The notes: generated from the letters alone by a model not told the origin. Positions 9,532 through 32,000 are shown, counted from the first letter of the stretch. The stretch is DNA of 32,000 bases from an uncultured bacterium (GCA_963699255.1 OY969425.1:540001-572000), one strand, 5' to 3'. Translations and numbers: made by a program.

Positions 9532-9536
9532 ATATT

Positions 9537-12048: not shown

Positions 12049-12054
12049 CAGAAA

Positions 12055-12104: not shown

Positions 12105-13253
12105 TTAATCCAGCACTACCAGTTTTCCGCTTCCGATGACACTGTCACCCGATATTATCTTGTAAATATACATCCCGTTACCGGCGACCTGGCCGCCGAG
12201 CGACCTGCCGTTCCAGTTCACCTGGTTAGTTCCGCCTCTGGCCCCGTTCGTGCCGGAGCCGAACCTCATCCTCTTTGCTTCATGTCCGGTTATGTCGTAT
12301 ATGACTATCGTAACGGCCGCGTCCTTGGACAGCGTGTACTGGATCGTCGTGGCAACGCCTGACATCGGACTGAATGGATTGGGATAATTGTATGTCCCTC
12401 CTACGACCTGCACAGACCCTCCTAACACCCTGGCTTCCATCGTGTCTTCACAGGCATTCGCGCTGATATCCTCCATGTGAAAAGTGAATAGATGTCTCTG
12501 CTGGGAGCCCGGTTGTATGGTGAAGTTGCCATACCATGTCCCGTAAAGAGAGTTCCCTGAAACAAGGCTCAACGGCGGATAGACCGGAATATTGTCAACC
12601 CTCAATAAAACTGAAGCGACACCCGCTCCGACTTCGCTTGATATGATAGCTTCCATGCTCACGTGGGATGATATTATGTCCCCGGACCTGACCCTGACGC
12701 CGTTCACCCATACAGCCACTACTTTCATAATGTCAGAAAAGGCTTCCGGCGTAAAAATAGTTGAAACCTGAAATGAAGGGACCGACCATTCTATCGGCAT
12801 GGGAGGATCGCCGGCCTCGATCGTGTCAGAAAGCTGAGAGTCGCCGTAATGGTCGGACATTACCAGAGAAGGGCCGTTCCATGCCCTTACGTAGAGCCTG
12901 CATTGCTCAGCAAGGGATTGGTCGCCCGCGAAATCCCTGATAAAAGCGCCGTTGCTCAGTCCGCCCTGCCCTACAGGCCCCGCCCAGAGGATAGTATCGC
13001 CGCCTGAGGGTCCGCCATATTTACTTGGAACATGGATAGTCTCTTCTGAAGCGCAAATGATCTGGATAACTTCGCCCGTAGGCAATGCATTGCCGTCCAG
13101 CCCTTGAACGGCCTGATTTGTCCCGTCCATCTGAACGGTGACCGTGACAGCCGACGCAGGAAGGTTGAATCCAAATGACAAAACCCCGATGACAAATAAA
13201 ACCCAAACGACAAATGACAAACCCCTTCCGTCTCTCGCTTGCGCTCGAGACAT
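12105..13253 (-). CDS. S7: secreted protein with the shared N-domain and a T9SS-type/FlgD-Ig-like C-terminal domain
   Basis: The signal peptide (..LSFVVWVLFVIGVLSFGFNLPASA) is followed by the N-domain also found in S2, S3 and S5. The C-terminus reads NYPNPFSP..TIQYTL..VTIVIYDITGHE....WNGRSLGGQVAGNGMYIYKI. The track starts at 13316, but 13254-13316 is read through repeat copy B. I prefer the ATG at 13253 (MSRAQARDGRG..). Confidence 0.8.
   Translation of the reverse strand: MSRAQARDGRGLSFVVWVLFVIGVLSFGFNLPASAVTVTVQMDGTNQAVQGLDGNALPTGEVIQIICASEETIHVPSKYGGPSGGDTILWAGPVGQGGLSNGAFIRDFAGDQSLAEQCRLYVRAWNGPSLVMSDHYGDSQLSDTIEAGDPPMPIEWSVPSFQVSTIFTPEAFSDIMKVVAVWVNGVRVRSGDIISSHVSMEAIISSEVGAGVASVLLRVDNIPVYPPLSLVSGNSLYGTWYGNFTIQPGSQQRHLFTFHMEDISANACEDTMEARVLGGSVQVVGGTYNYPNPFSPMSGVATTIQYTLSKDAAVTIVIYDITGHEAKRMRFGSGTNGARGGTNQVNWNGRSLGGQVAGNGMYIYKIISGDSVIGSGKLVVLD
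12108..12401 (-). other. T9SS type-A-like / FlgD-Ig-like C-terminal domain of S7
   Basis: The last 98 aa match the Por-secretion-tail pattern (N.PNPF.p.T.I.y.l......v.l.IyD..G......  ....WnG....G..v..G.Y.y.i). Confidence 0.6.
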
Positions 13254-13293
13254 CTCCCCCTTACTAAGGGGGAGATACAGAGGGGGTTTTGTC
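13221..13293. repeat. structured intergenic repeat, copy B
   Basis: 67 of its 73 nt are identical to copy A. The central palindrome is TCTCCCCCTT-ACT-AAGGGGGAGA. It lies between the S6 stop and the body of S7, and it supplies the S7 start codon and SD-like GGGGGAG. Confidence 0.65.
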
Positions 13294-13322
13294 GTTTTAT
13301 ATTTAAAATTTGTCATTACCGA

Positions 13323-15773
13323 TTAAGGTTTGGGTCTTGTCCCCCATGAGAAAGGACTTGCCGATTTCCTCTTGTAGAAATATCCCCTGTCAGCGCTCAT
13401 TTGCCATGTGGGAGCAATCCCCGTACTTACATCTATCCAGCTGCCCGACAGAGAAAGGTAGGCTTTGTTGTAGTTGGTGGTCCCCGGTATCAGCTGGTAG
13501 ACCACGTCCGCGCTGAGCAGATCTCCCGATTGAGCCCCGGATTCCAAGAGATTCGAATTGTTCAATAATATAGAAGCTGCCTGTCCGGAGGCTATTAGAT
13601 TCCAGCCGGGAATGATCTGGGTCGATCCGACAAAACCTCCCCCTCCTCCTCCGATCCCGCCCCCGGGCACACTGCCGGTGGAATCATAATTATTGGAATA
13701 TACAATTGACTGGGAATAAGCCCATGCCCGATAATAATATTGCTGTCCTTTAGTAAGGCCTGTATCCGAAAAGCTCTCGGTGCTGTCAATCATGGCGCTT
13801 TGAATATAAATCGGCACTTCATCGACATTAACCGGGACACCCAATGTAGGAAGAGTGCCGGATGCAAAGGGGCATGTCGCTGACGTAAATTCGCTCGTTC
13901 CCGGTTTTCTTAGGATTATCACTCCGCCCAGATTCGAACTCGAGGGATCAAACCAGTTAAGCCTGAGACTGGTATCCGTCGCCGGCATCGCATATAAAAA
14001 GCTGACCGGATCCGGCGGCGAGGTATCATAGCTTGCCTGTGCGCCTGAAGAATATCGCCTTAAGGTTTTATCGGTCCCCGTATTATTGTGAGTAAAGATC
14101 GTGACATAATAACCAAGCAATGGATCAGGGAAAACACTGGTATCAAAAGTGTAAGTCTGATTAGTAGCTCCAGGCGTCAATCCTCTCTCTTCATAGATGG
14201 CACCTCCAACTCCGGTATCTCCGGGAGTTGTGGGATAGCTGCCTAATTTTGCCACGATTATAACTCCATCAAACCATGAGTCCGAGGGGTTAGTCCAATT
14301 GACTTTTACGCCGGCCGAAGTATTTGATCCGAATACATTTGATGCATTGTGAGGAGGGATCCCGGCATCAGCAATGATCGGCGATGCAGCCGCATAGTTC
14401 CTGCCCTGTTCGTTGGGGTAGCCGTCATAAGCGCAGCGGTCATAATTATATACATTGAAAAAATATTCTGATCCGGGTGTGAGGCTGCTCACCACCGTAC
14501 TCCCTATATCACCTGTCGCGACAACAGTTGCGGTATTTACCGTGCCGCCAACACCATAATTATTGCCATTTGAATCCCCTGCTGCGCCCACAGGCGTTAT
14601 CCCTGTCCAGGTGCTTGAGGGGTTCTGCAGGACCATACATCCCGCATAATCCGAGGCGCTCCCTTTATTCCAGTATAGAGTTACCTTGTCATTCTCCGGC
14701 ACATACCCTGTAAAACCGGTTATCGTATCCCAACTGCTGCCATTATAGTGGAACATTCTAGGCTGATTCCCATTAACCGAAATATCGGATACATTTTTAG
14801 CCGAAAAAGATGGAGAAGCGCAAGGCGTGTAATCGTGGGATTTTACCGCAGAGCTCCAGGGAGTAGAAGTTTCATTATGGTCAAGAGTATTATCCACCGC
14901 TTCAACCCTGTAGTAATAGCTCACGGGGTTTCCGGTGGTGTAATCAATAAGATCATCAGGAAATCCCCCCTGAATGCCCGTGCTTAGGCCGTTCGGGTAA
15001 CTTCCTCCGCTGATGGAAAAATCACCGCCCGCAATTAGCGTGCCTGTGCCTGAACCTGTCGTGCTCCTGTATACTTTATACCTGACATTGTTTGAATTAT
15101 AACTGGTGGCAGTGATCCCAAAAGGAGTATAGTCAGTCACTCCTGCCGTTGTCCATGAAACGTTTATCTTATTTCCCGTTTGAGCATCGGTGACTCCTCC
15201 TACACCAGCAAAACCCACCGGCGAATGCGAGGCAGCAATGTTGATCGTTTGATCATTTATCGTGCCGATTCCCAGGCCATTATGGATCACATATACGCCC
15301 GGCCCGGTTGAAAGGCGGCAGGTGTCAGGCTCCCAGCTCAAAAGCGCGGTTCCCGTGGCAGTGGGAGTGATCCTGAAAGTCAGCTGATAAATATCGGTGG
15401 CAGATGAAACATCCCATCCGGTACCACTCGTGGCTACGCCCTTCGCATATTGAACTTTGCCTTCGGAAAAGGTGGCATTGATCGATGAAACATCAAACCA
15501 GCTTGAACTCATATAATCGCCTGATACTATGGGTCGCGTATTTGTTACGTATACAAACTTGTTGAGCTCATAATCCACCCAAGCATCGATCCCCACAATG
15601 TGACGGGCACTGCTTGGAGTATATCGAATATTGATAGGCCTGTCGCTGTTTTGCTCCCAATTGTGCGAAGAGTCCGCCTCATAGAAGCCTATACTATCCG
15701 CCAAAGCGGCAGAGGCCAGCATTACAACGATCAATGGGACCAAAAGCCCAACCTCCTTAAAAAAACTTTTCAT
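13323..15773 (-). CDS. S6: secreted protein with a cohesin-like N-module, FN3-like domains, a Gly-rich linker and CTD-A
   Basis: This intact ORF is 823 aa in the track. I prefer the internal ATG at 15773 (MKSFFKEVGLLVPLIVVMLASAALA), which has GAAGGGGG upstream. It is a paralogue of S4. FN3-like segments include KINVSWTTAGVTDYTPFGITATSY, VTLYWNKGSASDYAGCMVL, VKVNWTNPSDSWFDGVIIVAK and LRLNWFDPSSSNLGGVIILRK. Confidence 0.85.
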   Translation of the reverse strand: MKSFFKEVGLLVPLIVVMLASAALADSIGFYEADSSHNWEQNSDRPINIRYTPSSARHIVGIDAWVDYELNKFVYVTNTRPIVSGDYMSSSWFDVSSINATFSEGKVQYAKGVATSGTGWDVSSATDIYQLTFRITPTATGTALLSWEPDTCRLSTGPGVYVIHNGLGIGTINDQTINIAASHSPVGFAGVGGVTDAQTGNKINVSWTTAGVTDYTPFGITATSYNSNNVRYKVYRSTTGSGTGTLIAGGDFSISGGSYPNGLSTGIQGGFPDDLIDYTTGNPVSYYYRVEAVDNTLDHNETSTPWSSAVKSHDYTPCASPSFSAKNVSDISVNGNQPRMFHYNGSSWDTITGFTGYVPENDKVTLYWNKGSASDYAGCMVLQNPSSTWTGITPVGAAGDSNGNNYGVGGTVNTATVVATGDIGSTVVSSLTPGSEYFFNVYNYDRCAYDGYPNEQGRNYAAASPIIADAGIPPHNASNVFGSNTSAGVKVNWTNPSDSWFDGVIIVAKLGSYPTTPGDTGVGGAIYEERGLTPGATNQTYTFDTSVFPDPLLGYYVTIFTHNNTGTDKTLRRYSSGAQASYDTSPPDPVSFLYAMPATDTSLRLNWFDPSSSNLGGVIILRKPGTSEFTSATCPFASGTLPTLGVPVNVDEVPIYIQSAMIDSTESFSDTGLTKGQQYYYRAWAYSQSIVYSNNYDSTGSVPGGGIGGGGGGFVGSTQIIPGWNLIASGQAASILLNNSNLLESGAQSGDLLSADVVYQLIPGTTNYNKAYLSLSGSWIDVSTGIAPTWQMSADRGYFYKRKSASPFSWGTRPKP
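13326..13625 (-). other. CTD-A, conserved ~100-aa C-terminal domain (S6 copy)
   Basis: The domain reads IPGWNLIASGQ...DVVYQLIPGTTNYNKAYLSLSGSWIDVSTGIAPTWQMSADRGYFYKRK..WGTRPKP and is preceded by PGGGIGGGGGGF. Homologous C-termini occur in S1 (two copies), S2 and S4. Confidence 0.6.
15231..15698 (-). other. cohesin-like module of S6
   Basis: This ~155-aa module follows the signal peptide directly. HIVGIDAWVDYELNKFVYV, GKVQYAKGVATSG and DIYQLTFRITPTATGTALLSWE parallel the cohesin strands seen in clostridial cohesins (I.n.DF.f.YDpnvL.., ..i.f.f.....G, G.fa.i.f.v....G...i.f). This assignment is by eye only. Confidence 0.45.
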
Positions 15774-15802
15774 ATTAAAACCCCCTTCTTTCATTTGAAC
15801 AA

Positions 15803-16885
15803 TTATCTGGGCACAAAACTCTTAGCTCCAGCCTGCCAATTTACCCTCCAGTATGGGAGGTCCCCGCTGGCAGTGATAGATCCATCCCCATCAAGATCTG
15901 AATTGGGGTCAAATCCCGTCTCACCTTGCTTTATTCCTGACTGCCAGGCAGTCTGCCAGAAGGGCAGATCTCCTGAAGATGTAACCTGTCCATCCGCATC
16001 TATATCCCCTGCCCGCAAGCTCATAGTACTGTTGGCTTCTGTAGTCATGGCATCCGGGAAAGGAGCAACCGAATAGGCCGTATAATAGTTGCCTGCTGAA
16101 GGTTCCGAAATGTTCACGGAAGCTGTCCCTCCGCCAAAAGGAACTTTATCATTTGTTATGATCGCAAGATGGTTGGGGCCGATAGTGTTTCCGGCTTTAT
16201 GCTTGATCACCAGATAAAAATCACCCGCCGCATAGATATCCACCGTACCTACTCCGGTAGTATCCAAGCTGATATATTCCGAAGTCACCATATTTCCAGG
16301 GAAAGCGGTTCCGGGATCACTGCCGTTTCGCAGCTCAACTTCTATCGTAGCCGGAACCTGAAGACCGGTGCTTGGATTATAATATCCCTGCAGGTAGGCC
16401 TTTAATGTAAGGGTCGTAGCCGGCGGATTCTCGGTAGTGGTAGTGAATGTCCAAGTATAAGGGCCGGCCAATGGATTTCCGGATATGTTCCGCACTCCGG
16501 TATCGACAGTGCAGGTTATAGTTTCACTGGTAACGAATATTCCGGTCTGGTTAAAGGTAACGGTCCTTGTACTGTCATTATAAGAAGGTTTGGTCGCATG
16601 GACACCGGTTTTATCGCCGGTCACCATAAAGTTTTCGGCTGTTACGGTGCTTCCTAATAAAGAATTATTAAAGGCAGCGGTTATATTCGGGAATAAAAAT
16701 ACTCCCGTGGCATTGCTCTCCGGAGTGGTAGAGGTCACCGCAAGGGCGCCCGTGCTGATATTGACCTCCCGGCTGGAAGAAGAACTGACATTGCCGGCAT
16801 TATCCACGGCATGTACCTCCCAGGTATGAAGACCATCACTTAAGGAGGTTTCCGGTGTTGCCGAGATACTCGAGAGATGATACAT
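15803..16885 (-). CDS. S5, C-terminal fragment (Ig-like, Big_5-type Ig, beta-sandwich, dockerin-like end); no signal peptide of its own
   Basis: The 360-aa ORF is colinear with residues ~640-983 of S3 (HTWEVHAVDNAGNVSSSSS, TPESNATGVFLFPNI, TVTFNQ, CTVDTGV..GNP..PYTW.FTT, YLQGYYN). It overlaps the upstream fragment (16836-18785) in a different frame. Together the two fragments form one frameshifted gene. Confidence 0.75.
   Translation of the reverse strand: MYHLSSISATPETSLSDGLHTWEVHAVDNAGNVSSSSSREVNISTGALAVTSTTPESNATGVFLFPNITAAFNNSLLGSTVTAENFMVTGDKTGVHATKPSYNDSTRTVTFNQTGIFVTSETITCTVDTGVRNISGNPLAGPYTWTFTTTTENPPATTLTLKAYLQGYYNPSTGLQVPATIEVELRNGSDPGTAFPGNMVTSEYISLDTTGVGTVDIYAAGDFYLVIKHKAGNTIGPNHLAIITNDKVPFGGGTASVNISEPSAGNYYTAYSVAPFPDAMTTEANSTMSLRAGDIDADGQVTSSGDLPFWQTAWQSGIKQGETGFDPNSDLDGDGSITASGDLPYWRVNWQAGAKSFVPR
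15806..16012 (-). other. dockerin-like duplicated EF-hand module of S5
   Basis: The module has two parts, DIDADGQVTSSGDLPFWQTAWQSG and DLDGDGSITASGDLPYWRVNWQAG. Each is a Ca-loop (D.D.DG.[IV]) followed by a helix, at the extreme C-terminus. Confidence 0.55.
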
Positions 16886-18785
16886 CTATATTTTTGACAC
16901 TATCGATCCACAACTCATATTTTGCCAGTCCGGAACCAAAATCCGAAGACGCTTCCCAGGAAAAAGTGGGGGTTTGAATACTTAACCATGATCCTGATTC
17001 CGGGCTTATTAGATAAACACTTGCCGGCGGCGTCATATCCACTCCAAAGTCCATCGCGGACTCATCGTTATCGCCAAAACTGACCCAGTCACCTGTATTA
17101 TCGGCAGAATCCATTACCCTGGCCTGCCAGTGATACGCTCCTTCACCCATGTTCTCAAGAGTTATTAAGCCCGTCACAGGTGTTCCGGAATATGGAACTC
17201 CTTCGCCCGTGGCTGTGACAGTGCCATTGAAATCCGTTCCTACCGGTTCTATTTCCACTTCAGGATATAACGTCGTCCCGCTTAGGGGTGAACTCATGCT
17301 CATACTGATCTCTACCGTAGACTCGGTCATCCATTCTCCGGTGGCGATCGCAGTTATACCGTCCGATCTGAATTGACCAAGCCCTGCGGGAAGGTTCGGA
17401 GCAACGATGCCGAAAGCTTCGGTAGTAAAGGAAGCGACACTGCTGTATTCGCTGGTACCGTTCACGTTCACCGCAGCGACCTTCCAGTAGTATTCCGTGG
17501 TCGCACTAAGACTGGTGAATGTCCAGGCCGCTTCATCCGTGGTAGCCACTGTATCCGCCGCAGAGTCCTGCGTACCGTAACTTATCACAAAATATCCCGT
17601 GTAGCTTCCCGTATCCCATGTGCCGTACGCGGAGTCGGTGGTTATGTTCGTTGTGACCAGGCCCTCCGGAGTCCCCGGCAGAGCATCGGAATCCGCAGAT
17701 GAAACGTATGTCGTTAAAATATTGTCGCCGTTATATGCATATATATAGTAGAAGTGCGCCTGGTCAGCTACCAGATTGGCATCCACCGTAGTGGCCGCCG
17801 TACCTGTATAGATAAGCGCCCCGCCCAATGCTTCGGGGGTACCCTCGTACACCTCGAATCCGGACTGAGCACCGCCCGATTCCCACGAAATGACACAATC
17901 ATAACCGGCGCCATTCACTCCCAAGACAGATGGATTGATCGGAGCATTAGCCAGGGTATATTTTGGTTCCGCCGTCGCATATCCGCTGTAGCCCGCTTCA
18001 TTATATGCCCTCACCCTGACCCAGTACGCTTCATTTGTGGATAATCCATAGATAGTATATAAATCGTCGCCGGCTTCAGCCGTTCCCGTAAATATGGTCA
18101 CCCATGGATCGGTCGCGGACACCTCGATACTGAACCCTTTCTCATTAATTGAATTGACCTGCCATGTAAAACTCTCGGATGTGTCGCTGAGAGCTTCCAG
18201 TGTGGCATCGCTTGGATCCGCAGGAACGGAAACGGTCACGAATTCCGAGGAAGCAAAAAATGTCGGGACCGACCAGCTCTGGGGCATTGGCGGCGCGCCC
18301 GCGTCAAGGCTGGCAGAAAGATGGGAGTCGCCGTAATAGGTGGATGATTCGATGCTGGGGCCGTTCCACGCTCTTATGTAGATATGGCTGTCATCGAGCA
18401 GGGATTGGCCGCCCACGAATTCCTTGATAAAAGCGCCGGGCCCCATGATATAAGGGGGATCGCCCAGTTCGCCCTGTCCCACAACTCCGGTCCAGATCAA
18501 GGAATCTCCGCCCGTTGCTTCTCCTGTCGTGCCGGGCGCATGGATGGCTTCATTTGACGCGTAAATGACCTGGATGACCTCTCCGGTAGGCATCTTTGCG
18601 CCGTCATGGTCATATATGATCTGGTTCGTCCCGTCCATCATGACGGTGACCGAAACAGCCTCCGCCTGCCGCGGGATGGCAAATGACCAGATACCAACGA
18701 CAAAACAGATCCCGATGATAAATTTCCAGACCGGAAATTTGATCCCGGATATCATTTTATTGCCTGATGATCTCAGATCAGCCAT
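16836..18785 (-). CDS. S5, N-terminal fragment (signal peptide, shared N-domain, FN3-like domains, Ig-like)
   Basis: The 649-aa ORF has the RBS AGGAG 7 nt upstream of its ATG. It is colinear with residues 1-~630 of S3, and the N-domain is about four fifths identical by eye. It ends ..LAKYELWIDSVKNIDV and then runs into out-of-frame sequence. Confidence 0.8.
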   Translation of the reverse strand: MADLRSSGNKMISGIKFPVWKFIIGICFVVGIWSFAIPRQAEAVSVTVMMDGTNQIIYDHDGAKMPTGEVIQVIYASNEAIHAPGTTGEATGGDSLIWTGVVGQGELGDPPYIMGPGAFIKEFVGGQSLLDDSHIYIRAWNGPSIESSTYYGDSHLSASLDAGAPPMPQSWSVPTFFASSEFVTVSVPADPSDATLEALSDTSESFTWQVNSINEKGFSIEVSATDPWVTIFTGTAEAGDDLYTIYGLSTNEAYWVRVRAYNEAGYSGYATAEPKYTLANAPINPSVLGVNGAGYDCVISWESGGAQSGFEVYEGTPEALGGALIYTGTAATTVDANLVADQAHFYYIYAYNGDNILTTYVSSADSDALPGTPEGLVTTNITTDSAYGTWDTGSYTGYFVISYGTQDSAADTVATTDEAAWTFTSLSATTEYYWKVAAVNVNGTSEYSSVASFTTEAFGIVAPNLPAGLGQFRSDGITAIATGEWMTESTVEISMSMSSPLSGTTLYPEVEIEPVGTDFNGTVTATGEGVPYSGTPVTGLITLENMGEGAYHWQARVMDSADNTGDWVSFGDNDESAMDFGVDMTPPASVYLISPESGSWLSIQTPTFSWEASSDFGSGLAKYELWIDSVKNIDVSSLEYLGNTGNLLK

Positions 18786-18815
18786 TATTAACTCCTGATA
18801 ATGACAATTATTATG

Positions 18816-20966: not shown

Positions 20967-21250
20967 CTATCAACGCCTTCCAGAACGGTCGTCGGTATTT
21001 CATTTGACATGGTGGGCACGCCAAGGTTAGCGAAACCATCATAATTATTATATTGCAGATGGGCGTCGAAACCCAGGATCTGATAGCTTGTGCCGGTGAC
21101 ATAGTTTATCCTTAGCGGGCGATAGCTGTTCTGCTCCCAGGTATAATTTGAAGAATCGATGGACACATCCGCATACGCGAAACCCGCAGCGCCGAATAAG
21201 AACACAAGCAGGACTCCGATCACCTTCCATTTTTTCATTTTATTCTTCAT
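20780..21250 (-). CDS. S4, N-terminal fragment (signal peptide and first part of the cohesin-like module)
   Basis: I prefer the ATG at 21250 (MKNKMKKWKVIGVLLVFLFGAAGFAYA), which has GGAGGAG upstream. The track start at 21283 overlaps the end of S3. Homology to S6 (NYTWEQNSYRPLRINY..ILGFDAHLQYN) holds to about 20967. After that this frame reads non-homologous sequence until its stop at 20780. Confidence 0.65.
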   Translation of the reverse strand: MKNKMKKWKVIGVLLVFLFGAAGFAYADVSIDSSNYTWEQNSYRPLRINYVTGTSYQILGFDAHLQYNNYDGFANLGVPTMSNEIPTTVLEGVDRIYPQILLLRATLYTQGILRKPSIGRPVQELFPCMICNFWYRLRLSSGPTTLSIGIPQALNF

Positions 21251-21266
21251 TCTTAACTCCTCCTTT

Positions 21267-24218: not shown

Positions 24219-24296
24219 AATTAGCTCCTTGTTATATTATACTACTTCAATGAACCTCTTACCATTGTTATATTACATCGCTTCCCTTGTTATCAT

Positions 24297-25862: not shown

Positions 25863-25878
25863 CTCTTCTCCTCCTCAG

Positions 25879-25908
25879 GTGTGAAGTATATTTAATATTA
25901 CTTCACAC
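25879..25908. promoter_or_regulatory. perfect 10-bp inverted repeat between S1 and S2
   Basis: GTGTGAAGTA-N10-TACTTCACAC is located 14 nt after the S1 stop and ends about 5 nt before the S2 RBS. No U-tract follows it. Confidence 0.35.
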
Positions 25909-25921
25909 TAAACAATTACAT

Positions 25922-28900
25922 TCAGGGTTTCGGGTAATCCCAGGTCACATTTCCCGAACTGTTCTTTATGACCCAGTATCCTTTTCCGGCCTCAAATGAA
26001 GGCACAGATCCTGTCCATGTTGCTCCGTTATATGTCTCCACATTCCACCCGTTATTGTAGCCCCAGACCACGTCGGAAGAGGTTACATAATCCCCCAAAT
26101 GCGTCTGTGCCATGGTTTGCGTGGAATTAAATGCCGTTCCTACCAGATTGAAACCCGGATTGATACTCTGGCCCTCCAGAGTTATATAGCGATCCGTTTG
26201 TGATAAATTACCGGTCACCTCTAATGTGACCGCATTGCCCAAAAGTATCCAGTAGCCTTTATCCGCCTCGATCGAAGGTACAGATCCTGTCCATGTTGTT
26301 CCGTTGTATGTCTCTACATCCCACCCGCCAGCCGGCGAATAGGAATATACTGTGGCTGTCTGTCCGGCCAGTTGATTTCCTATCACACTGTTTATGGAAG
26401 TATCCTGCGGGATCACCGGCAGTGAGATCAAATTCCAACTCGCGACCAGAGGTATCTTTGCCCCCGGCGGCGTTATCGTGAGACTGAACTGCTTGTCATA
26501 TACCGCCGCCTGGCTGTCCGTCACCTCCACAGTGAACGTCCTGGTCTCAAATGTAGCGGGCGTTCCGTGCAGCAAGCCGTTTGTTTCCAGCGTTATTAAC
26601 TGAGGCGGGCTCCCGCCTTTCAATGACCACGTATACGGTGTTTCTCCGCCCGTCGCGGCGAACTGCAGGCTATATGCGGAACCCTGCATGCCGTCAGGCA
26701 GAGGTGACGCGGTCGTGATGAGCAGCGGATTTATCGCCGCTGCAGTATATCCCGTGTAATGGTATCCCATGTCAACGGTATTTGAATCCCCGTGTATGCC
26801 GTCCGGATTGGTGCCGTACCCTTCTTTTGAACTAAGGCCGAGCATATGGGCATCGCCGCTTCCTCTATCTATGCACTCCGACGTAATGAGCAGATGCACA
26901 TCTCCCGCCGGCCCGTTCACGAACAGCGGCTCCGAGCTGATGTTGCCGGTACCAGGATATACAGTGTCCCTCTGTACGCAGGAGTAGGTCACCGTCGGCG
27001 TTGAGCTGGTGCTTGCGATGTTCAGCGGCGAATTCCCGTATACGATGGTGTTCGTAATGACCGGCGATGAGGAGTTATAGTTGAATATCCCGCCGCCCGT
27101 GCTCGCCGTGTTCGCCGTGAAAGTGCAGTTCTTCACCTCCGGCGATGACGTAAAGTTGAACATGCCGCCGCCGAAGTTCGGTGTGGTGTTACCTGTGAAC
27201 TTGCAGTTCGTTACCACCGGATCCGCGGAGAAATAATTCAGGATGCCGCCGCCCTGTTTCGCGCTGTTCGATGTGAACACGCAGTTATTTATGGTCGCGG
27301 AGGTCTGGACGTTGCATATGCCGCCGCCGTAATTATTGTTCGCGCTGTTAGACTCAAAGGTGCAGTACTTGATGACCGGCGAAGAGGATATGTAGTTGCA
27401 AATACCGCCGCCGTAATTATTGACCGCGATGTTCAGAGAGAACGCGCAGTTCGATACCGTCATTGATGAGTGGTCGCCATAGATGCCGCCGCCGGATATG
27501 TTGGCGCGGTTCGACGAGAACACGCAGTTGTTTATGAGAGGATTGGAATTATTGAGAAGATACATCCCGCCGCCGTAGCCGCTCCCCCCGGACGCGTATC
27601 CGTTAGTTATCGTGAAGTTCTCGATCGTTGTGGCCGAGGTCAGCGTTGAGCCGCTCATGCAGCGCACGGCGCCCTCTCCGGATATTATCGTGGTAGTGCG
27701 GTCTACTGTCGGGCTCCAGCCGCCATCATAACCGCCGTGCAAATACACTCCCGGCTTGAGTATTATCGAAGCGGCCAATCTGTATGTCCCCTGCTGTACT
27801 CGTATCTCATCTCCGCTCTCCGCTGAGATTTCCGCTGAGTTTATAGTCTTGAAAGGATGCGGCTGGGACCCGTCCTGGAAACCGGAAGCGGAATCGCTTA
27901 CATACCAGACGCCGAGGGTGGATAATGTCTCCGCTGAAACCACACCGCTTGCATCGGTGGTTATCTGATCGCCGTTATATGCTCTCACTATGTACCAGTA
28001 TGTGGTGCTCAGCGGCAGGCCGGTATCGGTGTATTCCGTAGTTGTCACATTGTCTTCCCATGTGGCGATATATGTCCATGGCCCCGCCGCCTGGCTGGCC
28101 CTTTCTACAGCATACCTCGTTCCGTCGCCGCTCCAGAACAGCCTTATAGTTGCGCCGGTCACTTTCACGACCGCCAGGCTCTCCGGTGTATCAGCCAGGG
28201 TGAATACAGAGAAGTCCAGTGACGGCACCATATTCCCTCCGCCGTTATACGCCACGACATGGCGGGTATACTGCGTGTTGGCAAGCAGGCCGACCTCTGT
28301 TGTGCCCAGATCCCCGGCCGTCGCGGACCCGACCACATTATCAGAGGTGTCCTGCAAATAATATCCGTCAGCATCTGTCACATCGTTCCATGACCATATT
28401 ATAGAGCTCGTCGATTCTGCCGTGCCGGTGAGGACGGAAGGCGTCAGAGGATGCGTTTCAAACGATACTATTTCGCTATACTCTCCGTAGCCGCTCGAAT
28501 TTCCGGCTGAGACCTGCCAGTAGTATGTAGTGGCTGGAATAAGGTCCGTCCAGGTATATGATGTCTCCGTTGTCGTTATTGTTCCCAGGTTGGCCGCCGC
28601 CTGGTCCGTACCATAGCTTATCGTAAATGAATGAGCATCACTCTCCCACGTCCCGTAGGCGTCATTGGTCGTGATATTCGAGGTAAACAATCCCTCGGGG
28701 CTTGCCGGCGGCGTTAACCCCAATGATGAAATAGATGCGGGGGTTAATACATTATCACCATTATAGGCGTATATATAATATGTATAGGTGGTATCGGGGA
28801 TCAGGCCGCCGTCCACAGTTGAGGTGCCGGTCCCGTCATAGACCAAACTGCCAACGCCCTCGATCCCATCGCGGTATACCCTGTAGCCGGACTGTGCTCC

Positions 28901-30013
28901 GCCGGTCTCCCACGAAATGTTACAGTGATAACCGTAAGTAAGGTCATAGGCGCCGCTGACCACAGGATTGATAGGCGGTAAAGCCAGGGTATATACTGAA
29001 CAGCTGTTCGACTCACTGCTCCCGATGGTATTATACGCGTTCACTTCCCGGGTACATAGAGTATTCGCTGTCAGGCCGGTCTCAAGGGTGGTCGTTATAT
29101 TTGCCGCAACCGGGATCACTTTACTGTACGCGAGATAATGCAATTTATAGCCATCCTCATCCACAAGATCATTCCATGACCATAAGATGGATGAAGTTGA
29201 TTCGGCTGTCCCGATCAAGCCTGTAACCGGGACCGGAGAATTGAGGGTCGGCTGCGCATACCCGGAATAATGGTAGCCCATATCAACTCGGTAGGCATCG
29301 CCGTGGACCTCGTCCGAGTTGGTCCCATAACCCTGGCCAGGCACCCATCCAAGCCCGATGGCTATGGCATCGCCTGTTCCGGAATCGACGCATTCCGAGG
29401 TCGGGAGAAGATATAAGTCACCATTAGGGCCGCTTGCGAACAGCGGATCCGCAGTGATATTCCCGGTCAATCCAATAAAACCATCCGGGATGCAGGAGTA
29501 GGTTACCTCTGCAGTAGAATTAGCATCATCGGAGATGTTTCCTCCGTTATTGCCGTAAATGATAGAGTTTTTAACGGTTGGAGAGGAGTTGTCCCGGTTA
29601 GAGATACCGCCGCCTGAAACATGCGCGCTATTTGAAGCAAAGGTGCAGTTTTCTAAGGTTGGATTGGAGGTATCATTGTCTATTCCGCCGCCGGTTACCT
29701 CCGCGCTATTTGAAGTAAAGGAGCAGTTTGAAATGGTCATGAAGGATTGGTCGTTACCTATCCCGCCGCCGCTTACTTCCGCGCTGTTTAAAGTAAAGGC
29801 GCAGTTTGAAATGGTCGGGTAGCCACCTTCGTTATATATCCCGCCGCCGTAATTTGACCTGTTTGACTTAAAGGAACAGTTCGATATGGTTGGGGCGAAG
29901 GAGCCATTATATACACCGCCACCCCAAGGAGCGCTATTTGAAGTAAAAACGCAGTTTGAGACAATTGAGTTGGAGCTGGCGTTAACTATGCCGCCGCCGT
30001 AATACAGGGTCAC
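25922..30013 (-). CDS. S1, C-terminal fragment of a giant Pmp-like beta-helix, FN3 and Ig protein with two tandem CTD-A domains
   Basis: This is the 1363-aa ORF. It has 22-23-aa beta-helix repeats of the form NC.F..N.A...GGGI.N...SP.i (the GGxI / FxxN pattern of polymorphic-membrane-protein-type repeats). It also has FN3-like domains, a putative Ig domain (SPLPDGMQGSAYSLQFAATGGETPYTWSL) and two C-terminal copies of the WNLI...KGYW domain. The frame is open upstream to 30046 and is continuous in homology with the ORF at 30015-31088. Confidence 0.85.
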   Translation of the reverse strand: MTLYYGGGIVNASSNSIVSNCVFTSNSAPWGGGVYNGSFAPTISNCSFKSNRSNYGGGIYNEGGYPTISNCAFTLNSAEVSGGGIGNDQSFMTISNCSFTSNSAEVTGGGIDNDTSNPTLENCTFASNSAHVSGGGISNRDNSSPTVKNSIIYGNNGGNISDDANSTAEVTYSCIPDGFIGLTGNITADPLFASGPNGDLYLLPTSECVDSGTGDAIAIGLGWVPGQGYGTNSDEVHGDAYRVDMGYHYSGYAQPTLNSPVPVTGLIGTAESTSSILWSWNDLVDEDGYKLHYLAYSKVIPVAANITTTLETGLTANTLCTREVNAYNTIGSSESNSCSVYTLALPPINPVVSGAYDLTYGYHCNISWETGGAQSGYRVYRDGIEGVGSLVYDGTGTSTVDGGLIPDTTYTYYIYAYNGDNVLTPASISSLGLTPPASPEGLFTSNITTNDAYGTWESDAHSFTISYGTDQAAANLGTITTTETSYTWTDLIPATTYYWQVSAGNSSGYGEYSEIVSFETHPLTPSVLTGTAESTSSIIWSWNDVTDADGYYLQDTSDNVVGSATAGDLGTTEVGLLANTQYTRHVVAYNGGGNMVPSLDFSVFTLADTPESLAVVKVTGATIRLFWSGDGTRYAVERASQAAGPWTYIATWEDNVTTTEYTDTGLPLSTTYWYIVRAYNGDQITTDASGVVSAETLSTLGVWYVSDSASGFQDGSQPHPFKTINSAEISAESGDEIRVQQGTYRLAASIILKPGVYLHGGYDGGWSPTVDRTTTIISGEGAVRCMSGSTLTSATTIENFTITNGYASGGSGYGGGMYLLNNSNPLINNCVFSSNRANISGGGIYGDHSSMTVSNCAFSLNIAVNNYGGGICNYISSSPVIKYCTFESNSANNNYGGGICNVQTSATINNCVFTSNSAKQGGGILNYFSADPVVTNCKFTGNTTPNFGGGMFNFTSSPEVKNCTFTANTASTGGGIFNYNSSSPVITNTIVYGNSPLNIASTSSTPTVTYSCVQRDTVYPGTGNISSEPLFVNGPAGDVHLLITSECIDRGSGDAHMLGLSSKEGYGTNPDGIHGDSNTVDMGYHYTGYTAAAINPLLITTASPLPDGMQGSAYSLQFAATGGETPYTWSLKGGSPPQLITLETNGLLHGTPATFETRTFTVEVTDSQAAVYDKQFSLTITPPGAKIPLVASWNLISLPVIPQDTSINSVIGNQLAGQTATVYSYSPAGGWDVETYNGTTWTGSVPSIEADKGYWILLGNAVTLEVTGNLSQTDRYITLEGQSINPGFNLVGTAFNSTQTMAQTHLGDYVTSSDVVWGYNNGWNVETYNGATWTGSVPSFEAGKGYWVIKNSSGNVTWDYPKP
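25925..26461 (-). other. two tandem CTD-A-type domains at the S1 C-terminus
   Basis: The two copies read SWNLISLPVIP...TVYSYSPAGGWDVETYNGTTWTGSVPSIEADKGYWILL and PGFNLVGTAFN...VVWGYNNGWNVETYNGATWTGSVPSFEAGKGYWVIK..WDYPKP. Confidence 0.5.
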
Positions 30014-30014
30014 G

Positions 30015-31088
30015 CTATTTGAAGTAAAGGTGCAGTTTGAGAATCTCTATTGTGGAGGACTCACTATAGATCCCGCCGCCGCCGTATACCGCGCTATTTG
30101 ATTCAAAAGAGCAGTTCAAGACGACCGGAGAGGAGGAGTAGTAGCTGGCTAAACCGCCGGCGTTGTGACCTGCCCTATTTGAAATAAAATCACAGTTTTT
30201 GATGGTTGGAGAGGAATTGTCCAAACCAAGCCCGCCGCCATCTCCGCCGGAGACATAACCATTTTGTATGGTGAAGTTCTCAACGGTGGTGGCAGAACCA
30301 AGCCCCTCTCCGTGCATGCACTGGACGCTGCCTTCTCCGGATATTCTGGTAAGCGAGGGATCGTTGATCTGCGCCCAACTATCGTCGTAGCCTCCCATTA
30401 AATGGACGCCGCTTGAGAGAAAAATTGTGCCCGGAACAGTCAGAGAATATGTCCCCATCTTCACATGTATCTCATCGCCGTAGCGCATGTTCCCATTGCT
30501 CTCGGCTGAGTTAATGGTATTAAAGGCGTCATTCGTAGAGCGGCCGGTATGAGTAAAGTCATTTCCATTGATGCTGTCAACGTACCAGATCGTTGGAACA
30601 GGTATGATGCTGAACTTGCCGCTTTCACCGTACCCGCTGTTGCCGGAGGTATCTACCGCGGTGATCTTTATCTTTGCCTCCGTGGTGGCGATATTAGGAA
30701 CCGTCCAGGCATAGCTTCCACTGTTAGCTATACCCGTGACGATCGCAGTATAGGATGATCCCCCGTCTATTGAGTAAGAGATGCTGATGGGGTTTGTAAT
30801 AAGCCCCTGATCATCGGAAGCTTCCCAGGTAATATCGTAGCTGTACCCCCCGGTCCAGACATCCCCGCCTGCGGGAGAAAAGACCTCAACGGTGGGAGGC
30901 GTGATATCGGTCAGGACCGATTCAGAGCTGGTGTAACCATAATAATGGTATCCCATGTTCACTATCCCATCGTCGCCGTGGAACCTGTCCAGGTTGGTCC
31001 CGTAACCTTGCTGCCATCCAAGACCAAGTATCTGACGCCTCGCCGGTCCCGGTATTAACGCAGGGCGAGTTATTGGGAAGGTGCACAT
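30015..31088 (-). CDS. S1, middle fragment (Ig-like domain and the start of beta-helix module 2)
   Basis: In the 357-aa ORF only the part from ..ILGLGWQQGYGTNLDRFHGDDGIVNMGYHYYGY onward is homologous to the inter-module linker seen elsewhere in S1. The fragment ends inside a beta-helix repeat (..GGGGIYSESSTIE) that continues in another frame at 30046. Confidence 0.7.
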   Translation of the reverse strand: MCTFPITRPALIPGPARRQILGLGWQQGYGTNLDRFHGDDGIVNMGYHYYGYTSSESVLTDITPPTVEVFSPAGGDVWTGGYSYDITWEASDDQGLITNPISISYSIDGGSSYTAIVTGIANSGSYAWTVPNIATTEAKIKITAVDTSGNSGYGESGKFSIIPVPTIWYVDSINGNDFTHTGRSTNDAFNTINSAESNGNMRYGDEIHVKMGTYSLTVPGTIFLSSGVHLMGGYDDSWAQINDPSLTRISGEGSVQCMHGEGLGSATTVENFTIQNGYVSGGDGGGLGLDNSSPTIKNCDFISNRAGHNAGGLASYYSSSPVVLNCSFESNSAVYGGGGIYSESSTIEILKLHLYFK

Positions 31089-32000
31089 CGCCGGCAGACG
31101 GATTTACTAATTTTGGATCCGCAGTGATATTGCCGGTCATTCCGATGTAGCCGTCAGGAATGCAGGTGTAAGTTACATTTGATGAACCTCCGTTGTCGTA
31201 GATGTTCCCTCCGGTATTTCCATAAACGATCGAATTCAAAATTATCGGAGAGGATGATTCGTTATATATACCACCGCCGCTGCCTGCAATGTTTGAAGTA
31301 AAAGTGCAACCTTCAATGGTCGGAGTGCCATTGTAATCATATATCGCTCCGCCGTTGCTGCCGCCTGCGTTATTTGAAATAAAGGCGCAATTAAAGATAA
31401 ACGGTGAAGGCAAACCATAATTATCATTGTATATAGCGCCGCCGCCGTTCGTGCTTGCGCTATTTGAAATAAAGGCACAGTTTTTGATGATCGGGGTGGC
31501 ACCACTGATCCAGATAGCGCCGCCGACATTGAGCGCCCTATTTGCAATGAAATTGCAATTTGATATGGTTGGCGAAGAGTTATTGTAAAGTATAAGACCA
31601 CCGCCACCGGGGAGAAGGTGTCCATTGTAATATCCATCTCGTATGGTGAAACTTTCAATTGTGGTAGCAGAACCAAGCGAGTTCCCGATCATGCACCGGA
31701 CCTGGCCCTCTCCGGATATTATGGTAAGCGCGGGATCGTTAACTTGATTCCAGCCGTCATCATAGCCGCCCCTCAAATATATGCCGTCATAGAGAGTGAT
31801 GGTTTGTGGTCCGGTCCCCGGTCCACTGTCACTGCTGTACAGATAATATGTCCCCTGCCTCACATGTATCTCATCGCCGTAGCTCATGCCCACATTGTTC
31901 TCGGCCGCGTTGATGGTCTTGAACGGATGCTCCGCAGAACCGTCCGCGCCAGCCTCGGGAGAGGCAGCGTCTACATACCAATAGGCTGAAGCACGGGAAA
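30922..32000 (-). CDS. S1, upstream fragment (beta-helix module 1); open to the right edge of the window
   Basis: The track lists 30922-31893. The same frame stays open to position 32000 (..AYWYVDAASPEAGADGSAEHPFKTINAAENNVGMSYGDEIHV..), so the gene starts outside the window. Homology to the other S1 modules ends at ..PCVNTGTGEASD (about 31035) and resumes in the frame of 30015-31088. Confidence 0.7.
   Translation of the reverse strand, partial: SRASAYWYVDAASPEAGADGSAEHPFKTINAAENNVGMSYGDEIHVRQGTYYLYSSDSGPGTGPQTITLYDGIYLRGGYDDGWNQVNDPALTIISGEGQVRCMIGNSLGSATTIESFTIRDGYYNGHLLPGGGGLILYNNSSPTISNCNFIANRALNVGGAIWISGATPIIKNCAFISNSASTNGGGAIYNDNYGLPSPFIFNCAFISNNAGGSNGGAIYDYNGTPTIEGCTFTSNIAGSGGGIYNESSSPIILNSIVYGNTGGNIYDNGGSSNVTYTCIPDGYIGMTGNITADPKLVNPSAGDVHLPNNSPCVNTGTGEASDTWSWMAARLRDQPGQVPRRRWDSEHGIPLLWLHQL

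What the first reader, a model, noticed from the sequence alone, without database searches (positions are those of the whole stretch)
12105..32000. Seven co-directional genes encoding a combinatorial set of secreted modular proteins: a candidate self-assembling cell-surface system
S1-S7 are all on the minus strand, with gaps of only 8-80 nt. The stop/start pairs are 25922/25862, 24297/24218, 21267/21250, 18816/18785, 15803/15773 and 13323/13253. Every protein whose N-terminus lies in the window has a signal peptide. A small module set is re-dealt among the genes. The shared N-domain is in S2, S3, S5 and S7. A dockerin-like end is in S3 and S5. A cohesin-like head is in S4 and S6. CTD-A is in S1 (two copies), S2, S4 and S6. 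A T9SS-type CTD is in S7. A Pmp-like beta-helix is in S1. FN3 and Ig spacers occur throughout. I see no catalytic, transporter or regulatory domain anywhere in 20 kb. The picture is of adhesin- or scaffold-like parts that carry matching connectors and anchors, meaning a multi-protein surface structure encoded as one operon. That is different from a collection of independent adhesins. I do not recognise this architecture as a described system.
Basis: partly seen in the sequence, partly recalled or inferred. Interest (0 to 1): 0.8.

Follow-up and report, generated by a model that had tools for sequence, protein, structure and literature searches.

The report
Non-cellulosomal cohesin–dockerin surface protein cluster
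An uncultured outer-membrane bacterium carries a rare gene cluster of enzyme-free secreted stalk proteins. Two adjacent gene pairs in it appear to join through the cohesin–dockerin "plug and socket" known from cellulosomes, here apparently used to build a cell-surface structure.

Summary
The seven co-directional genes and the shared modules are real.

- **Cohesin head (S4/S6):** supported. Pfam does not detect it. A head profile recovers Pfam-validated cohesins (hhalign 98.7%). An AlphaFold model (pLDDT 76.5) has cohesins as its 35 best PDB matches.
- **Dockerin tail (S3/S5):** suggestive only. It is a duplicated EF-hand-like calcium-loop pair. Pfam Dockerin_1 is below threshold, and the best PDB relative is a dockerin at E 3e-4.
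- **Gene pairing:** S3/S4 and S5/S6 are a tandemly duplicated dockerin-gene then cohesin-gene pair. The pair recurs in every related contig that shows it, including a distant genome where only the tail module and the cohesin protein are kept.
- **CTD-A:** a confident model (pLDDT 85) has no match in the PDB or viral structure libraries, and the domain is unrelated to the T9SS C-terminal domain that S7 carries.
- **Enzymes:** no enzyme family is detected, but S1's beta-helix fold also occurs in some enzymes.

My reading is a lineage-restricted, non-cellulosomal cohesin–dockerin system that makes two-chain surface fibrils or adhesins. Binding, anchoring and operon status are inferred, not shown. 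It is a new variant of a known kind. Interest is about 0.5.

The parts
25922..32000 (-). S1 (N-terminus lies off the window). More than 2024 aa once two frameshifts (c. 31029 and c. 30041) are bridged. It has three right-handed beta-helix modules with PMP-type repeats, an Ig domain, FN3 domains and two C-terminal CTD-A-like copies.
   Evidence: ORFs. Frames and junctions. Pfam Beta_helix 92.5 bits, Chlam_PMP 32.8 bits, fn3, Kre9_KNH and Big_7.
25925..26470 (-). Two tandem CTD-A-like domains at the S1 C-terminus (26198-26470 and 25925-26197). Motifs are (S/G)(W/F)NL(I/V) ... W.TGSVP ... KGYW, and the protein ends in YPKP.
   Evidence: Alignments. hhalign against the S2/S4/S6 CTD-A profile gives 90.8%, E 1.2e-6. 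85% DNA repeat D19.
24297..25862 (-). S2, 521 aa: signal peptide, divergent N-domain (25308-25775), fn3, then CTD-A (24300-24599). It is a single-chain protein carrying both the N-domain and CTD-A.
21267..24218 (-). S3, 983 aa (TTG start; an ATG 10 codons downstream was used by the gene call on contig L004). Order: signal peptide, N-domain (23652-24092), fn3 domains, Big_13/Big_5 (21873-22391), beta-rich 'X-like' module (21504-21860), dockerin-like tail.
21270..21530 (-). S3 dockerin-like tail. Two 12-residue Ca-loop-like segments (NANGDPYIRIDD and DFNGDGLIRIDD), each followed by FGIWL..NG.
   Evidence: Direct reading plus the alignment. The profile's best PDB hit is dockerin 2y3n_B at E 3.2e-4. 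Pfam gives only EF-hand, below threshold.
18816..21250 (-). S4, 811 aa after adding 1 nt near 20966: signal peptide, cohesin head (c. 20682-21172), FN3-like region, Gly-rich linker, CTD-A (18819-19109).
   Evidence: The intact orthologue P0008 is 60% identical.
15803..18785 (-). S5, 993 aa after removing the extra T at 16868. It is a paralogue of S3 (62% identity). N-domain at 18231-18659, X-like module plus dockerin-like tail at 15806-16450, tail proper at 15806-16048.
   Evidence: Pfam Dockerin_1 19.2 bits against a gathering score of 22.9.
13323..15794 (-). S6, 823 aa, intact. It is a paralogue of S4 (35% identity): signal peptide, cohesin head, FN3-like region, Gly-rich linker, CTD-A.
15195..15707 (-). 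S6 cohesin head (aa 30-200).
   Evidence: Exhaustive HMMER hits include Pfam-validated cohesins. hhalign 98.7%, E 3.7e-16. AlphaFold2 pLDDT 76.5. The 35 best Foldseek PDB hits are all cohesins.
13326..13631 (-). S6 CTD-A (aa 722-823), ending in RPKP.
   Evidence: AlphaFold2 pLDDT 85, pTM 0.77. No fold match in the PDB or BFVD (best E 0.07 and 0.05). No relation to the S7 CTD.
12105..13253 (-). S7, probably starting at M22 (13253) of the 403-aa ORF: signal peptide, N-domain (12747-13151), middle region, T9SS type A / FlgD-Ig C-terminal domain (12108-12386).
   Evidence: Orthologue on L009 is 79% identical.
13221..13298 (.). 78-nt repeat element with the palindrome TCTCCCCCTTACTAAGGGGGAGA, lying between S6 and S7. 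A second copy is at 9459-9536, upstream of trpE.
12077..12095 (-). Hairpin CCCCCTTTAATAAAGGGGG just after the S7 stop, followed by a TGTGATATAAT box before aroQ. This is the likely end of the cluster's transcription unit.
   Evidence: Direct reading.

Best explanation
The cluster encodes a lineage-restricted, enzyme-free cohesin–dockerin surface system.

**The two-chain units.** There are two tandemly duplicated gene pairs, S3+S4 and S5+S6.
- The first gene of each pair encodes a secreted stalk of about 985 aa. It runs signal peptide, novel N-domain of about 140 aa, FN3/Ig spacers, beta-rich X-like module, C-terminal dockerin-like Ca-loop pair.
- The second gene encodes a secreted protein of about 815 aa. 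It runs signal peptide, N-terminal cohesin, FN3-like spacers, Gly-rich linker, CTD-A.

**Proposed mechanism (inferred).** After export, the dockerin-like tail of S3 (or S5) docks onto the cohesin of the protein encoded just downstream, S4 (or S6). This gives a long two-chain fibril with the N-domain at one end and CTD-A at the other.

**One-chain versions.**
- S2 joins an N-domain to CTD-A directly.
- S7 joins an N-domain to a T9SS type A C-terminal domain.
- This pattern suggests the N-domain is the displayed, probably ligand-binding, head.
- It also suggests that CTD-A and the T9SS domain are alternative cell-envelope attachment modules.
- S1, a giant beta-helix/PMP-like protein, carries two CTD-A-like copies and would be attached the same way.

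**Shown versus inferred.**
- Shown: module homologies, the cohesin fold, synteny, rarity, and absence of recognisable enzymes.
- Inferred: cohesin–dockerin binding, its pair specificity, anchoring by CTD-A, surface location, and co-transcription.
For: **Cohesin**
- The head profile finds only 11 proteins among 1.84 billion representatives. P0010, P0013 and P0014 carry Pfam Cohesin above the gathering score over stretches that overlap the matched ones.
- hhalign gives 98.7%, E 3.7e-16.
- The AlphaFold2 model has pLDDT 76.5, and the 35 best Foldseek PDB hits are all cohesins (E 1.5e-7 to about 3.6e-5, TM-score up to 0.77).

**Dockerin-like tail**
- It has two EF-hand-type loops at the extreme C-terminus.
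- The best PDB relative of the tail profile is a dockerin.
- Pfam Dockerin_1 scores 19.2 bits for S5.

**Pairing**
- A gene for a dockerin-tailed protein lies directly upstream of a gene for a cohesin-headed protein, 8-17 nt apart, in 5 of 5 observable cases. These are two in the window, two on L005 and one on L006.
- On the distant locus L006, only the C-terminal 225 aa (X-like module plus tail, 43% identical) of the upstream protein is conserved. The rest is a different CarboxypepD_reg protein.

**Domain logic and synteny**
- S2 fuses the N-domain and CTD-A in one chain.
- Synteny holds on L005, L008 and L009 at 60-83% identity, and the L005 orthologues of S4 and S5 are intact.
- An LptA/LptD_N-type gene in the flank points to an outer membrane.
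Against: - Pfam does not detect cohesin in S4 or S6 even at E up to 10.
- Only 1 of 5 tails touches Dockerin_1, and below threshold. EF-hand models score about as well. hhalign against a validated dockerin gives only 43%. The tail fold was not modelled.
- No binding test of any kind was possible.
- CTD-A has no known anchoring relative.
- Four frameshifts interrupt S1, S4 and S5 in this assembly. An independent contig still has S4 broken.
- The rest of the genome could not be inspected. T9SS machinery, other dockerin proteins or enzymes may exist elsewhere.
- Promoter and terminator scans were uninformative.
Confidence: 0.55

Rival explanations
1. Cellulosome-like enzyme display. S4 and S6 would be small, single-cohesin anchoring scaffoldins. 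Their real clients would be dockerin-bearing hydrolases encoded elsewhere in the genome, with S3 and S5 merely two of many dockerin proteins.
For: The S4/S6 head has the cohesin fold. A cellulosome-like system whose scaffoldin carries a conserved C-terminal attachment domain has been proposed for Cloacimonadota (PMC8542988). The rest of the 1.77-Mb contig could not be examined.
Against: There is no enzyme or CBM in 20 kb. Each protein has only one cohesin. The conserved unit across loci is the adjacent dockerin-tail and cohesin gene pair, with 8-17 nt junctions. The dockerin-like tails are highly atypical and family-specific.
Confidence: 0.15
2. Independent adhesins. The genes would be a paralogous cluster of separately acting surface adhesins. 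The cohesin-fold head would be just another beta-sandwich binding domain, and the tail a structural Ca-binding motif, with no inter-subunit assembly.
For: The dockerin evidence is sub-threshold. Cohesin-like folds occur in non-assembling contexts, for example a C. perfringens glycoside hydrolase and a fibrillar-adhesin CLIPPER domain among the fold hits. Adhesin genes often cluster and duplicate.
Against: The tail-gene then head-gene adjacency is kept when the rest of the upstream protein is replaced (L006). The pair was duplicated as a unit. Junctions are tight.
Confidence: 0.15
3. Head-to-tail fibre. The N-domain would bind CTD-A, so that S1, S2, S3:S4, S5:S6 and S7 polymerise in gene order into one fibre. 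S7's T9SS domain would tether the base to the cell.
For: Domain logic only. Every unit has an N-domain at one end and CTD-A at the other. S1 ends in CTD-A-like copies. The last gene has an N-domain plus a cell anchor.
Against: There is no evidence that the N-domain and CTD-A interact. CTD-A-like domains occur widely, as tandem pairs, in proteins without the N-domain. L006 has no N-domain detectable by BLAST.
Confidence: 0.1
4. Decaying cluster. The genes would be pseudogenes in this genome, no longer making a functional system.
For: There are four frameshifts in 20 kb and none in the nine Pfam-recognised housekeeping genes of the 12-kb flank. Logan contig L004 is also out of frame in S4, and L001 carries a different indel in the S5 tail.
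Against: L001, from the same run, lacks the S5 frameshift. The indels are single bases at sites where independent assemblies disagree, as expected for read error or strain heterogeneity. Apart from these single-base shifts the reading frames stay open, with no premature stop codon or large deletion. Orthologues are intact on L005. At the observed rate, about 2.4 frameshifts would be expected in the 12-kb flank (P about 0.09 for zero, my calculation), so the contrast is not significant.
Confidence: 0.05

Closest known systems
Clostridial cellulosome cohesin–dockerin system (type I/II/III cohesins; dockerin PF00404)
   Same: A secreted non-catalytic protein carries a cohesin-fold module. The partner carries a C-terminal duplicated Ca-loop and helix tail. 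An X-like beta module sits next to the tail, as in type II X-Doc. Components are spaced by FN3/Ig modules. An attachment module sits at the far end of the cohesin protein.
   Different: There is one cohesin per protein and no enzymes or CBMs. The host appears to have an outer membrane rather than being a Firmicute. There is no SLH or sortase anchor. Both modules are too divergent for the Pfam thresholds. The presumed cognate partners are encoded as adjacent, duplicated gene pairs.
Non-cellulosomal cohesin/dockerin modules. These were surveyed by Peer et al. 2009, cited in PMC8542988. Examples are the Archaeoglobus fulgidus cohesin (PDB 2xdh) and Clostridium perfringens glycoside-hydrolase cohesins (2w1n, 2jh2, 2vo8).
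   Same: Single cohesin-fold modules in proteins unrelated to cellulose degradation. These structures are among the fold hits (ranks 16, 20, 21, 31).
   Different: Those examples sit on enzymes or small proteins. Here both partners are long non-catalytic stalks carrying two uncharacterised terminal domains, the N-domain and CTD-A.
Predicted cellulosome-like complex of 'Ca. Stygibacter' (Cloacimonadota) (PMC8542988)
   Same: Cohesin and dockerin proteins in an uncultured non-Firmicute lineage, together with C-terminal-domain surface attachment. The authors cite a T9SS review for that domain.
   Different: Stygibacter has a 3,755-aa scaffoldin with tandem cohesins and CBMs, and its dockerins are on GH18, GH57 and peptidases. 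Here the T9SS-type domain is on S7, which has neither cohesin nor dockerin. The cohesin proteins end in CTD-A instead.
T9SS cargo proteins with a type A C-terminal domain (TIGR04183)
   Same: S7 passes the model. It is modular, Ig-rich and secreted.
   Different: Only S7 has it. CTD-A of S1, S2, S4 and S6 shows no sequence or fold relation to it.
Chlamydial Pmp-type / right-handed beta-helix surface proteins
   Same: S1 has Chlam_PMP and POMP repeats within beta-helix modules.
   Different: There is no autotransporter barrel. The C-terminus is two CTD-A-like domains.

Membership tests
Cohesin (Pfam PF00963) | Sequence match to the Pfam Cohesin HMM at or above the gathering score | tested here: not met
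   No Cohesin hit for the heads of S6, S4 or P0002, even at E up to 10.
Cohesin (Pfam PF00963) | Demonstrable homology to bona fide cohesin modules | tested here: met
   The head profile hits P0010 (E 2.6e-7), P0013 (6e-6) and P0014 (9e-5) in a 1.84-billion-protein library. Their matched stretches overlap Pfam Cohesin domains scoring 27.6-52.8 bits against a gathering score of 24.1. hhalign gives 98.7%, E 3.7e-16.
Cohesin (Pfam PF00963) | Cohesin beta-sandwich (jelly-roll) fold | tested here: met
   The AlphaFold2 model has pLDDT 76.5 and pTM 0.75. Foldseek PDB ranks 1-35 are all cohesins, with probability 1.00 and TM-scores of 0.55-0.77.
Cohesin (Pfam PF00963) | Binds a dockerin | not testable with these tools
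   No complex prediction or experiment was available.
Dockerin (Pfam PF00404) | Sequence match to Dockerin_1 at or above the gathering score | tested here: not met
   S5 scores 19.2 bits against 22.9. S3, L5a, L5c and L6e give no Dockerin_1 hit, only sub-threshold EF-hand hits.
Dockerin (Pfam PF00404) | A C-terminal duplicated segment, each with an EF-hand-type Ca-binding loop followed by a helix | tested here: inconclusive
   S3 has two canonical 12-residue loops (NANGDPYIRIDD and DFNGDGLIRIDD). S5 has 13-residue loops. The W/NG helix motif is conserved in 5 tails. The best PDB relative is dockerin 2y3n_B at E 3.2e-4, but calerythrin and calmodulin follow closely. hhalign against a validated dockerin gives 43%, E 2.5e-4. 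The helices are assumed, because the fold was not modelled.
Cellulosome | Scaffoldin with multiple cohesins plus a CBM | tested here: not met
   S4 and S6 each have one cohesin, and no CBM family is hit.
Cellulosome | Dockerin-bearing carbohydrate-active enzymes | tested here: not met
   No enzyme family is found in S1-S7. The rest of the genome could not be examined.
T9SS type A cargo | C-terminal domain matching TIGR04183 at or above the cut-off | tested here: met
   S7 scores 33.2 bits against 23, and FlgD_ig 29.6 against 27. This holds for S7 only. CTD-A is unrelated.
T9SS type A cargo | T9SS machinery (PorK/L/M/N, Sov, PorU/V) present in the genome | not testable with these tools
   Only the 32-kb window was available. 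The genome is absent from the species-representative collection scanned.
Chlamydial Pmp / autotransporter adhesins (S1) | PMP repeats in a beta-helix passenger, plus a C-terminal autotransporter barrel | tested here: not met
   The repeats are present (Chlam_PMP 32.8 bits against 20.6). The C-terminus, however, is two CTD-A-like domains with no barrel family hit.

The most novel reading that the evidence does not exclude
The cluster would encode an ordered, self-assembling fibre. The N-domain and CTD-A would be a second, previously unknown connector pair. Together with cohesin–dockerin they would link S1, S2, S3:S4, S5:S6 and S7 head-to-tail in gene order. S7's T9SS domain would fix the base to the outer membrane. 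CTD-A would also be a new fold.
Probability: 0.1. Interest if true: 0.8.

Novelty: new variant of a known kind. Interest (0 to 1): 0.5.

Why it matters
- Cohesin–dockerin pairing is the textbook way to build extracellular multi-enzyme machines, and it is a workhorse of synthetic biology. What the many non-cellulosomal cohesins and dockerins do is largely unknown.
- This locus gives a clean, directly testable case. Two presumably orthogonal partner pairs are encoded side by side, with no enzymes. They appear to be used to build long surface fibrils in an outer-membrane bacterium from a lineage that is almost unsampled.
- If binding is confirmed, it adds two very divergent, possibly orthogonal connector pairs.
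- It also flags two uncharacterised terminal domains. CTD-A has a confident predicted structure with no match in the PDB or viral structure libraries.

Tried and rejected
- **Methylation-motif basecalling errors at GATC/AGATCT as the cause of the frameshifts.** Several sites sit in near-GATC contexts. However, GATC is very common here (239 sites against about 124 expected) and 9 AGATCT sites are intact, so the coincidence carries no weight.
- **A recurrent frameshift in the S6-like gene of L008.** It is only a scaffold gap of Ns.
- **N-domain related to cohesin.** hhalign 0.06%.
- **CTD-A as a divergent T9SS C-terminal domain.** hhalign 0.15%, and no fold match.
- **Mirror-tree signal between tails and downstream heads.** r = 0.84, but it is driven by one orthologous pair and is not used as evidence.
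- **L006 repeating the 'same head on a dockerin protein and on a T9SS protein' logic.** There is no similarity among the L006 proteins.
- **Organism identification failed.**
  - The genome is absent from the species-representative scan.
  - No source names were returned.
  - Accession searches in papers found nothing.
  - Look-ups that might have reached the 1.77-Mb contig failed.
- **The metagenome scan** gave only an FN3-level hit.
- **Promoter and terminator scan.** Terminator-like sites were at shuffle expectation and promoter-like sites only about 2 sd above it, so the scan was not informative.

Full report
**1. What is in the sequence**

From 32000 down to 12105 every large ORF is on the minus strand. 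Three of the seven "genes" are nevertheless not single ORFs in this sequence.
- S1 is read in three frames (31998-30925, 31103-30018, 30046-25925).
- S4 is read in two frames (21289-20783, 20966-18819).
- S5 is read in two frames (18815-16839, 16885-15806).

Comparison with paralogues and orthologues places four single-base shifts near 31029, 30041, 20966 and 16868. Bridging them gives continuous proteins of more than 2024 aa (S1), 811 aa (S4) and 993 aa (S5).

Two short contigs assembled independently from run ERR10755942 are 99.9% identical to the window.
- L001 lacks the extra T at 16868, so S5 is in frame there. It carries a different indel at 15897, inside the second tail repeat.
- L004 has a further 1-nt deletion at 20967 and is still out of frame in S4.

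The frameshift sites are therefore places where assemblies of the same sample disagree. That points to read error or strain heterogeneity rather than fixed decay, but I cannot decide this without the reads. The nine Pfam-recognised housekeeping genes of the 12-kb flank have no frameshift. At the observed rate that contrast is not significant (my estimate, P about 0.09).

**2. Module map**

- **Paralogy.** S3 and S5 are full-length paralogues (62% identity). S4 and S6 are also full-length paralogues (35%). The core is one gene pair duplicated in tandem.
- **N-domain.** About 140 aa directly after the signal peptide, shared by S3, S5 and S7 (E 1e-49). A divergent version is in S2 (E 2e-5 to 2e-8). 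It has no Pfam family, no PDB relative and no relation to cohesin.
- **Spacers.** S3 and S5 continue with fn3, Big_13/OmpL47-like and Big_5 modules. S4 and S6 give no Pfam hit. Their middle region looks FN3-like only through a weak fn3 hit in the S4 orthologue P0008.
- **Tail region.** S3 and S5 end in a beta-rich module of about 120 aa and a C-terminal tail of about 75 aa.
- **CTD-A.** About 100 aa, ending RPKP or EAR, shared by S2, S4 and S6 (E 1e-32 and 4e-20). The two terminal domains of S1 are distant relatives (hhalign 90.8%, E 1.2e-6).
- **S7.** It ends in a T9SS type A / FlgD-Ig domain that passes TIGR04183.
- **S1.** It has three beta-helix modules with PMP repeats.
- **N-termini.** All six N-termini in the window look like Sec signal peptides (no dedicated predictor).
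- **Enzymes and regulators.** No enzyme, transporter or regulator family is hit. The beta-helix fold also occurs in some enzymes, so S1 being catalytic is not excluded.

**3. Is the head a cohesin?**

Pfam and NCBIfam see nothing, even at E up to 10, and there is no PDB sequence relative. An exhaustive HMMER search with a profile of the S6, S4 and P0002 heads found only 11 proteins among 1.84 billion representatives.
- The closer hits are S4/S6-family members (P0008, P0009).
- The remote hits P0010 (E 2.6e-7), P0013 (6e-6) and P0014 (9e-5) carry Pfam Cohesin domains above the gathering score, overlapping the matched stretches. P0015 carries a Pfam dockerin.
- Profile–profile comparison of the head family with those validated cohesins gives 98.7%, E 3.7e-16 over 132 columns. 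The cohesin set was chosen from the hits. Each member, though, was significant on its own against the whole library and passes Pfam independently.
- An AlphaFold2 model of S6 residues 30-200 reaches pLDDT 76.5 and pTM 0.75.
- Its 35 best Foldseek matches in the PDB are all cohesin modules of types I, II and III. They include the non-cellulosomal ones from Archaeoglobus fulgidus and Clostridium perfringens (E 1.5e-7 to about 3.6e-5, TM-score up to 0.77).

The head is a highly divergent cohesin.

**4. Is the tail a dockerin?**

- **By eye.** S3 has two 12-residue EF-hand-type loops (NANGDPYIRIDD and DFNGDGLIRIDD). Each is followed by FGIWL..NG, and the loops start about 36 residues apart. S5 has 13-residue loops (DIDADGQVTSSGD and DLDGDGSITASGD). 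The pattern is conserved in five tails.
- **By score.** The case is weak.
  - Dockerin_1 scores 19.2 bits for S5 (gathering score 22.9) and gives no hit for the other four tails. EF-hand models score similarly.
  - The tail profile's best PDB relative is a dockerin (2y3n_B, E 3.2e-4), closely followed by calerythrin and calmodulin.
  - hhalign against a Pfam-validated dockerin gives 43%, E 2.5e-4.

I call it dockerin-like, with family membership inconclusive.

**5. Evidence from related loci**

The family is very rare.
- S6 finds only itself and one 66%-identical protein among 5.8 billion clusters.
- CTD-A finds 7 proteins.
- The window's PGK, GAPDH and AroQ are singletons at 90% clustering.

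Even so, the gene order recurs.

| Locus | Source | Gene order seen |
|---|---|---|
| L005 | JGI metagenome | S3-like (69%), S4-like (60%, intact), S5-like (66%, intact, 1363 aa), cohesin-headed protein |
| L008 | ENA | S6-like (73%), then S3/S5-like |
| L009 | JGI | S6-like C-terminus (83%), then S7-like (79%) |
| L006 | NCBI GCA_043812655.1 | 458-aa CarboxypepD_reg protein, then the cohesin-headed protein P0009 (37% to S6) 17 nt downstream |

L006 is the most telling case. Its 458-aa protein has an unrelated N-terminal half, yet it ends in the same X-like module plus tail (43% identical to S3 residues 777-981). A beta-helix protein and a protein ending in a CTD 34% identical to S7's CTD region (FlgD_ig is only a faint precomputed hit there) lie nearby.

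In all five observable cases the tail gene is 8-17 nt upstream of the head gene. The head gene is 24-69 nt from the next gene. Selection has kept tail and head together while the rest changed. This is the strongest argument that they interact.

**6. CTD-A**

The AlphaFold2 model is confident (pLDDT 85, pTM 0.77). It has no significant match in the PDB (best E 0.07, TM-score 0.34) or in BFVD. It has no PDB sequence relative and no relation to S7's T9SS domain.

**7. Mechanism**

The best-supported reading is that each dockerin-tailed stalk (S3, S5) plugs into the cohesin of the protein encoded immediately downstream (S4, S6). The resulting two-chain fibril has the N-domain at one end and CTD-A at the other.

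S2 (N-domain plus CTD-A) and S7 (N-domain plus T9SS domain) are one-chain equivalents. This is a Rosetta-stone-type argument that the N-domain is the displayed head and that CTD-A and the T9SS domain are alternative attachment ends.

An LptA-type gene in the flank indicates an outer membrane.

A hairpin and a promoter-like box after S7 suggest that transcription of the cluster ends there. Co-transcription itself is unproven, because the strand run continues into housekeeping genes and the scan was uninformative.

The rivals are as follows.
- Enzyme display, with client enzymes encoded elsewhere.
- Independent adhesins.
- A head-to-tail fibre in which the N-domain binds CTD-A.
- A decaying pseudogene cluster.

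**8. Comparison with what is known, and verdict**

The connector is the known cohesin–dockerin kind. Non-cellulosomal cohesins and dockerins have been catalogued (Peer et al. 2009, cited in PMC8542988; my knowledge). A cellulosome-like complex whose scaffoldin is attached by a conserved C-terminal domain has been proposed for Cloacimonadota (PMC8542988).

This locus is not a cellulosome. It has no multi-cohesin scaffoldin, no CBM and no enzymes.

It is a new variant of a known kind, defined by three features.
- It is an enzyme-free, duplicated, adjacent tail/head gene pair on long stalk proteins.
- It carries two uncharacterised terminal domains.
- It comes from a barely sampled lineage with an outer membrane.

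The assembly claim is plausible but unproven. The frameshifts were missed, and the novelty was overstated. Interest 0.5.

Noticed in passing
window 9459-9536 and 13221-13298: A 78-nt repeat, 90% identical between the two copies, with a perfect palindromic core TCTCCCCCTTAnTAAGGGGGAGA (0 matches expected by chance). Both copies sit immediately upstream of, or overlapping, a minus-strand gene start (trpE and S7). The first 21 codons of the 403-aa S7 ORF are a translation of this element, so S7 probably starts at 13253.
   Followed up: partly
window 12031-12104: The S7-aroQ spacer holds a hairpin CCCCCTTTAATAAAGGGGG (12077-12095). It is followed by TGTGATATAAT, an extended -10-like box, just before the aroQ ATG at 12030.
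   Followed up: no
window c. 31029, 30041, 20966, 16868; L001 and L004: All four frameshifts are single-base indels at non-homopolymer sites. Independent contigs from run ERR10755942 carry different indels at 16868, 20967 and 15897. The cause (read error or strain heterogeneity) is undecided.
   Followed up: partly
window 1-32000: GATC occurs 239 times against about 124 expected from base composition.
   Followed up: no
window 2486-2560 (minus): tRNA-Ala (CGC), the only Rfam or ARAGORN hit in the window.
   Followed up: yes
window 510-2386 (minus): Two ORFs with no Pfam family. One is 404 aa with an internal repeat of about 35 aa (...ALS.EKA.D..YI.AL..L.KA.I...G..V...). The other is 179 aa. 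They lie next to the tRNA.
   Followed up: no
window 2744-5086 and 11593-12030: PGK, GAPDH and AroQ of this genome are each the only member of their 90%-identity cluster among about 15 billion proteins. The lineage is otherwise essentially unsampled, and its taxonomy could not be determined.
   Followed up: partly
L006 1664-2881 and 6185-8605: In the distant locus, the cohesin protein P0009 and a neighbouring 405-aa secreted protein end in a different C-terminal domain that looks similar to CTD-A (FN.V..P ... W ... G.GYQV). It may be a remote CTD-A relative. This was judged by eye only, and BLAST found no match between the two proteins at E up to 0.01.
   Followed up: no
L006 2917-4794 and 8659-9030: The distant locus has three unrelated genes inserted among its surface-protein genes. 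They encode a nucleotidyltransferase (NTP_transf_2), a 438-aa protein with no Pfam family and a 23S_rRNA_IVP four-helix-bundle protein.
   Followed up: no
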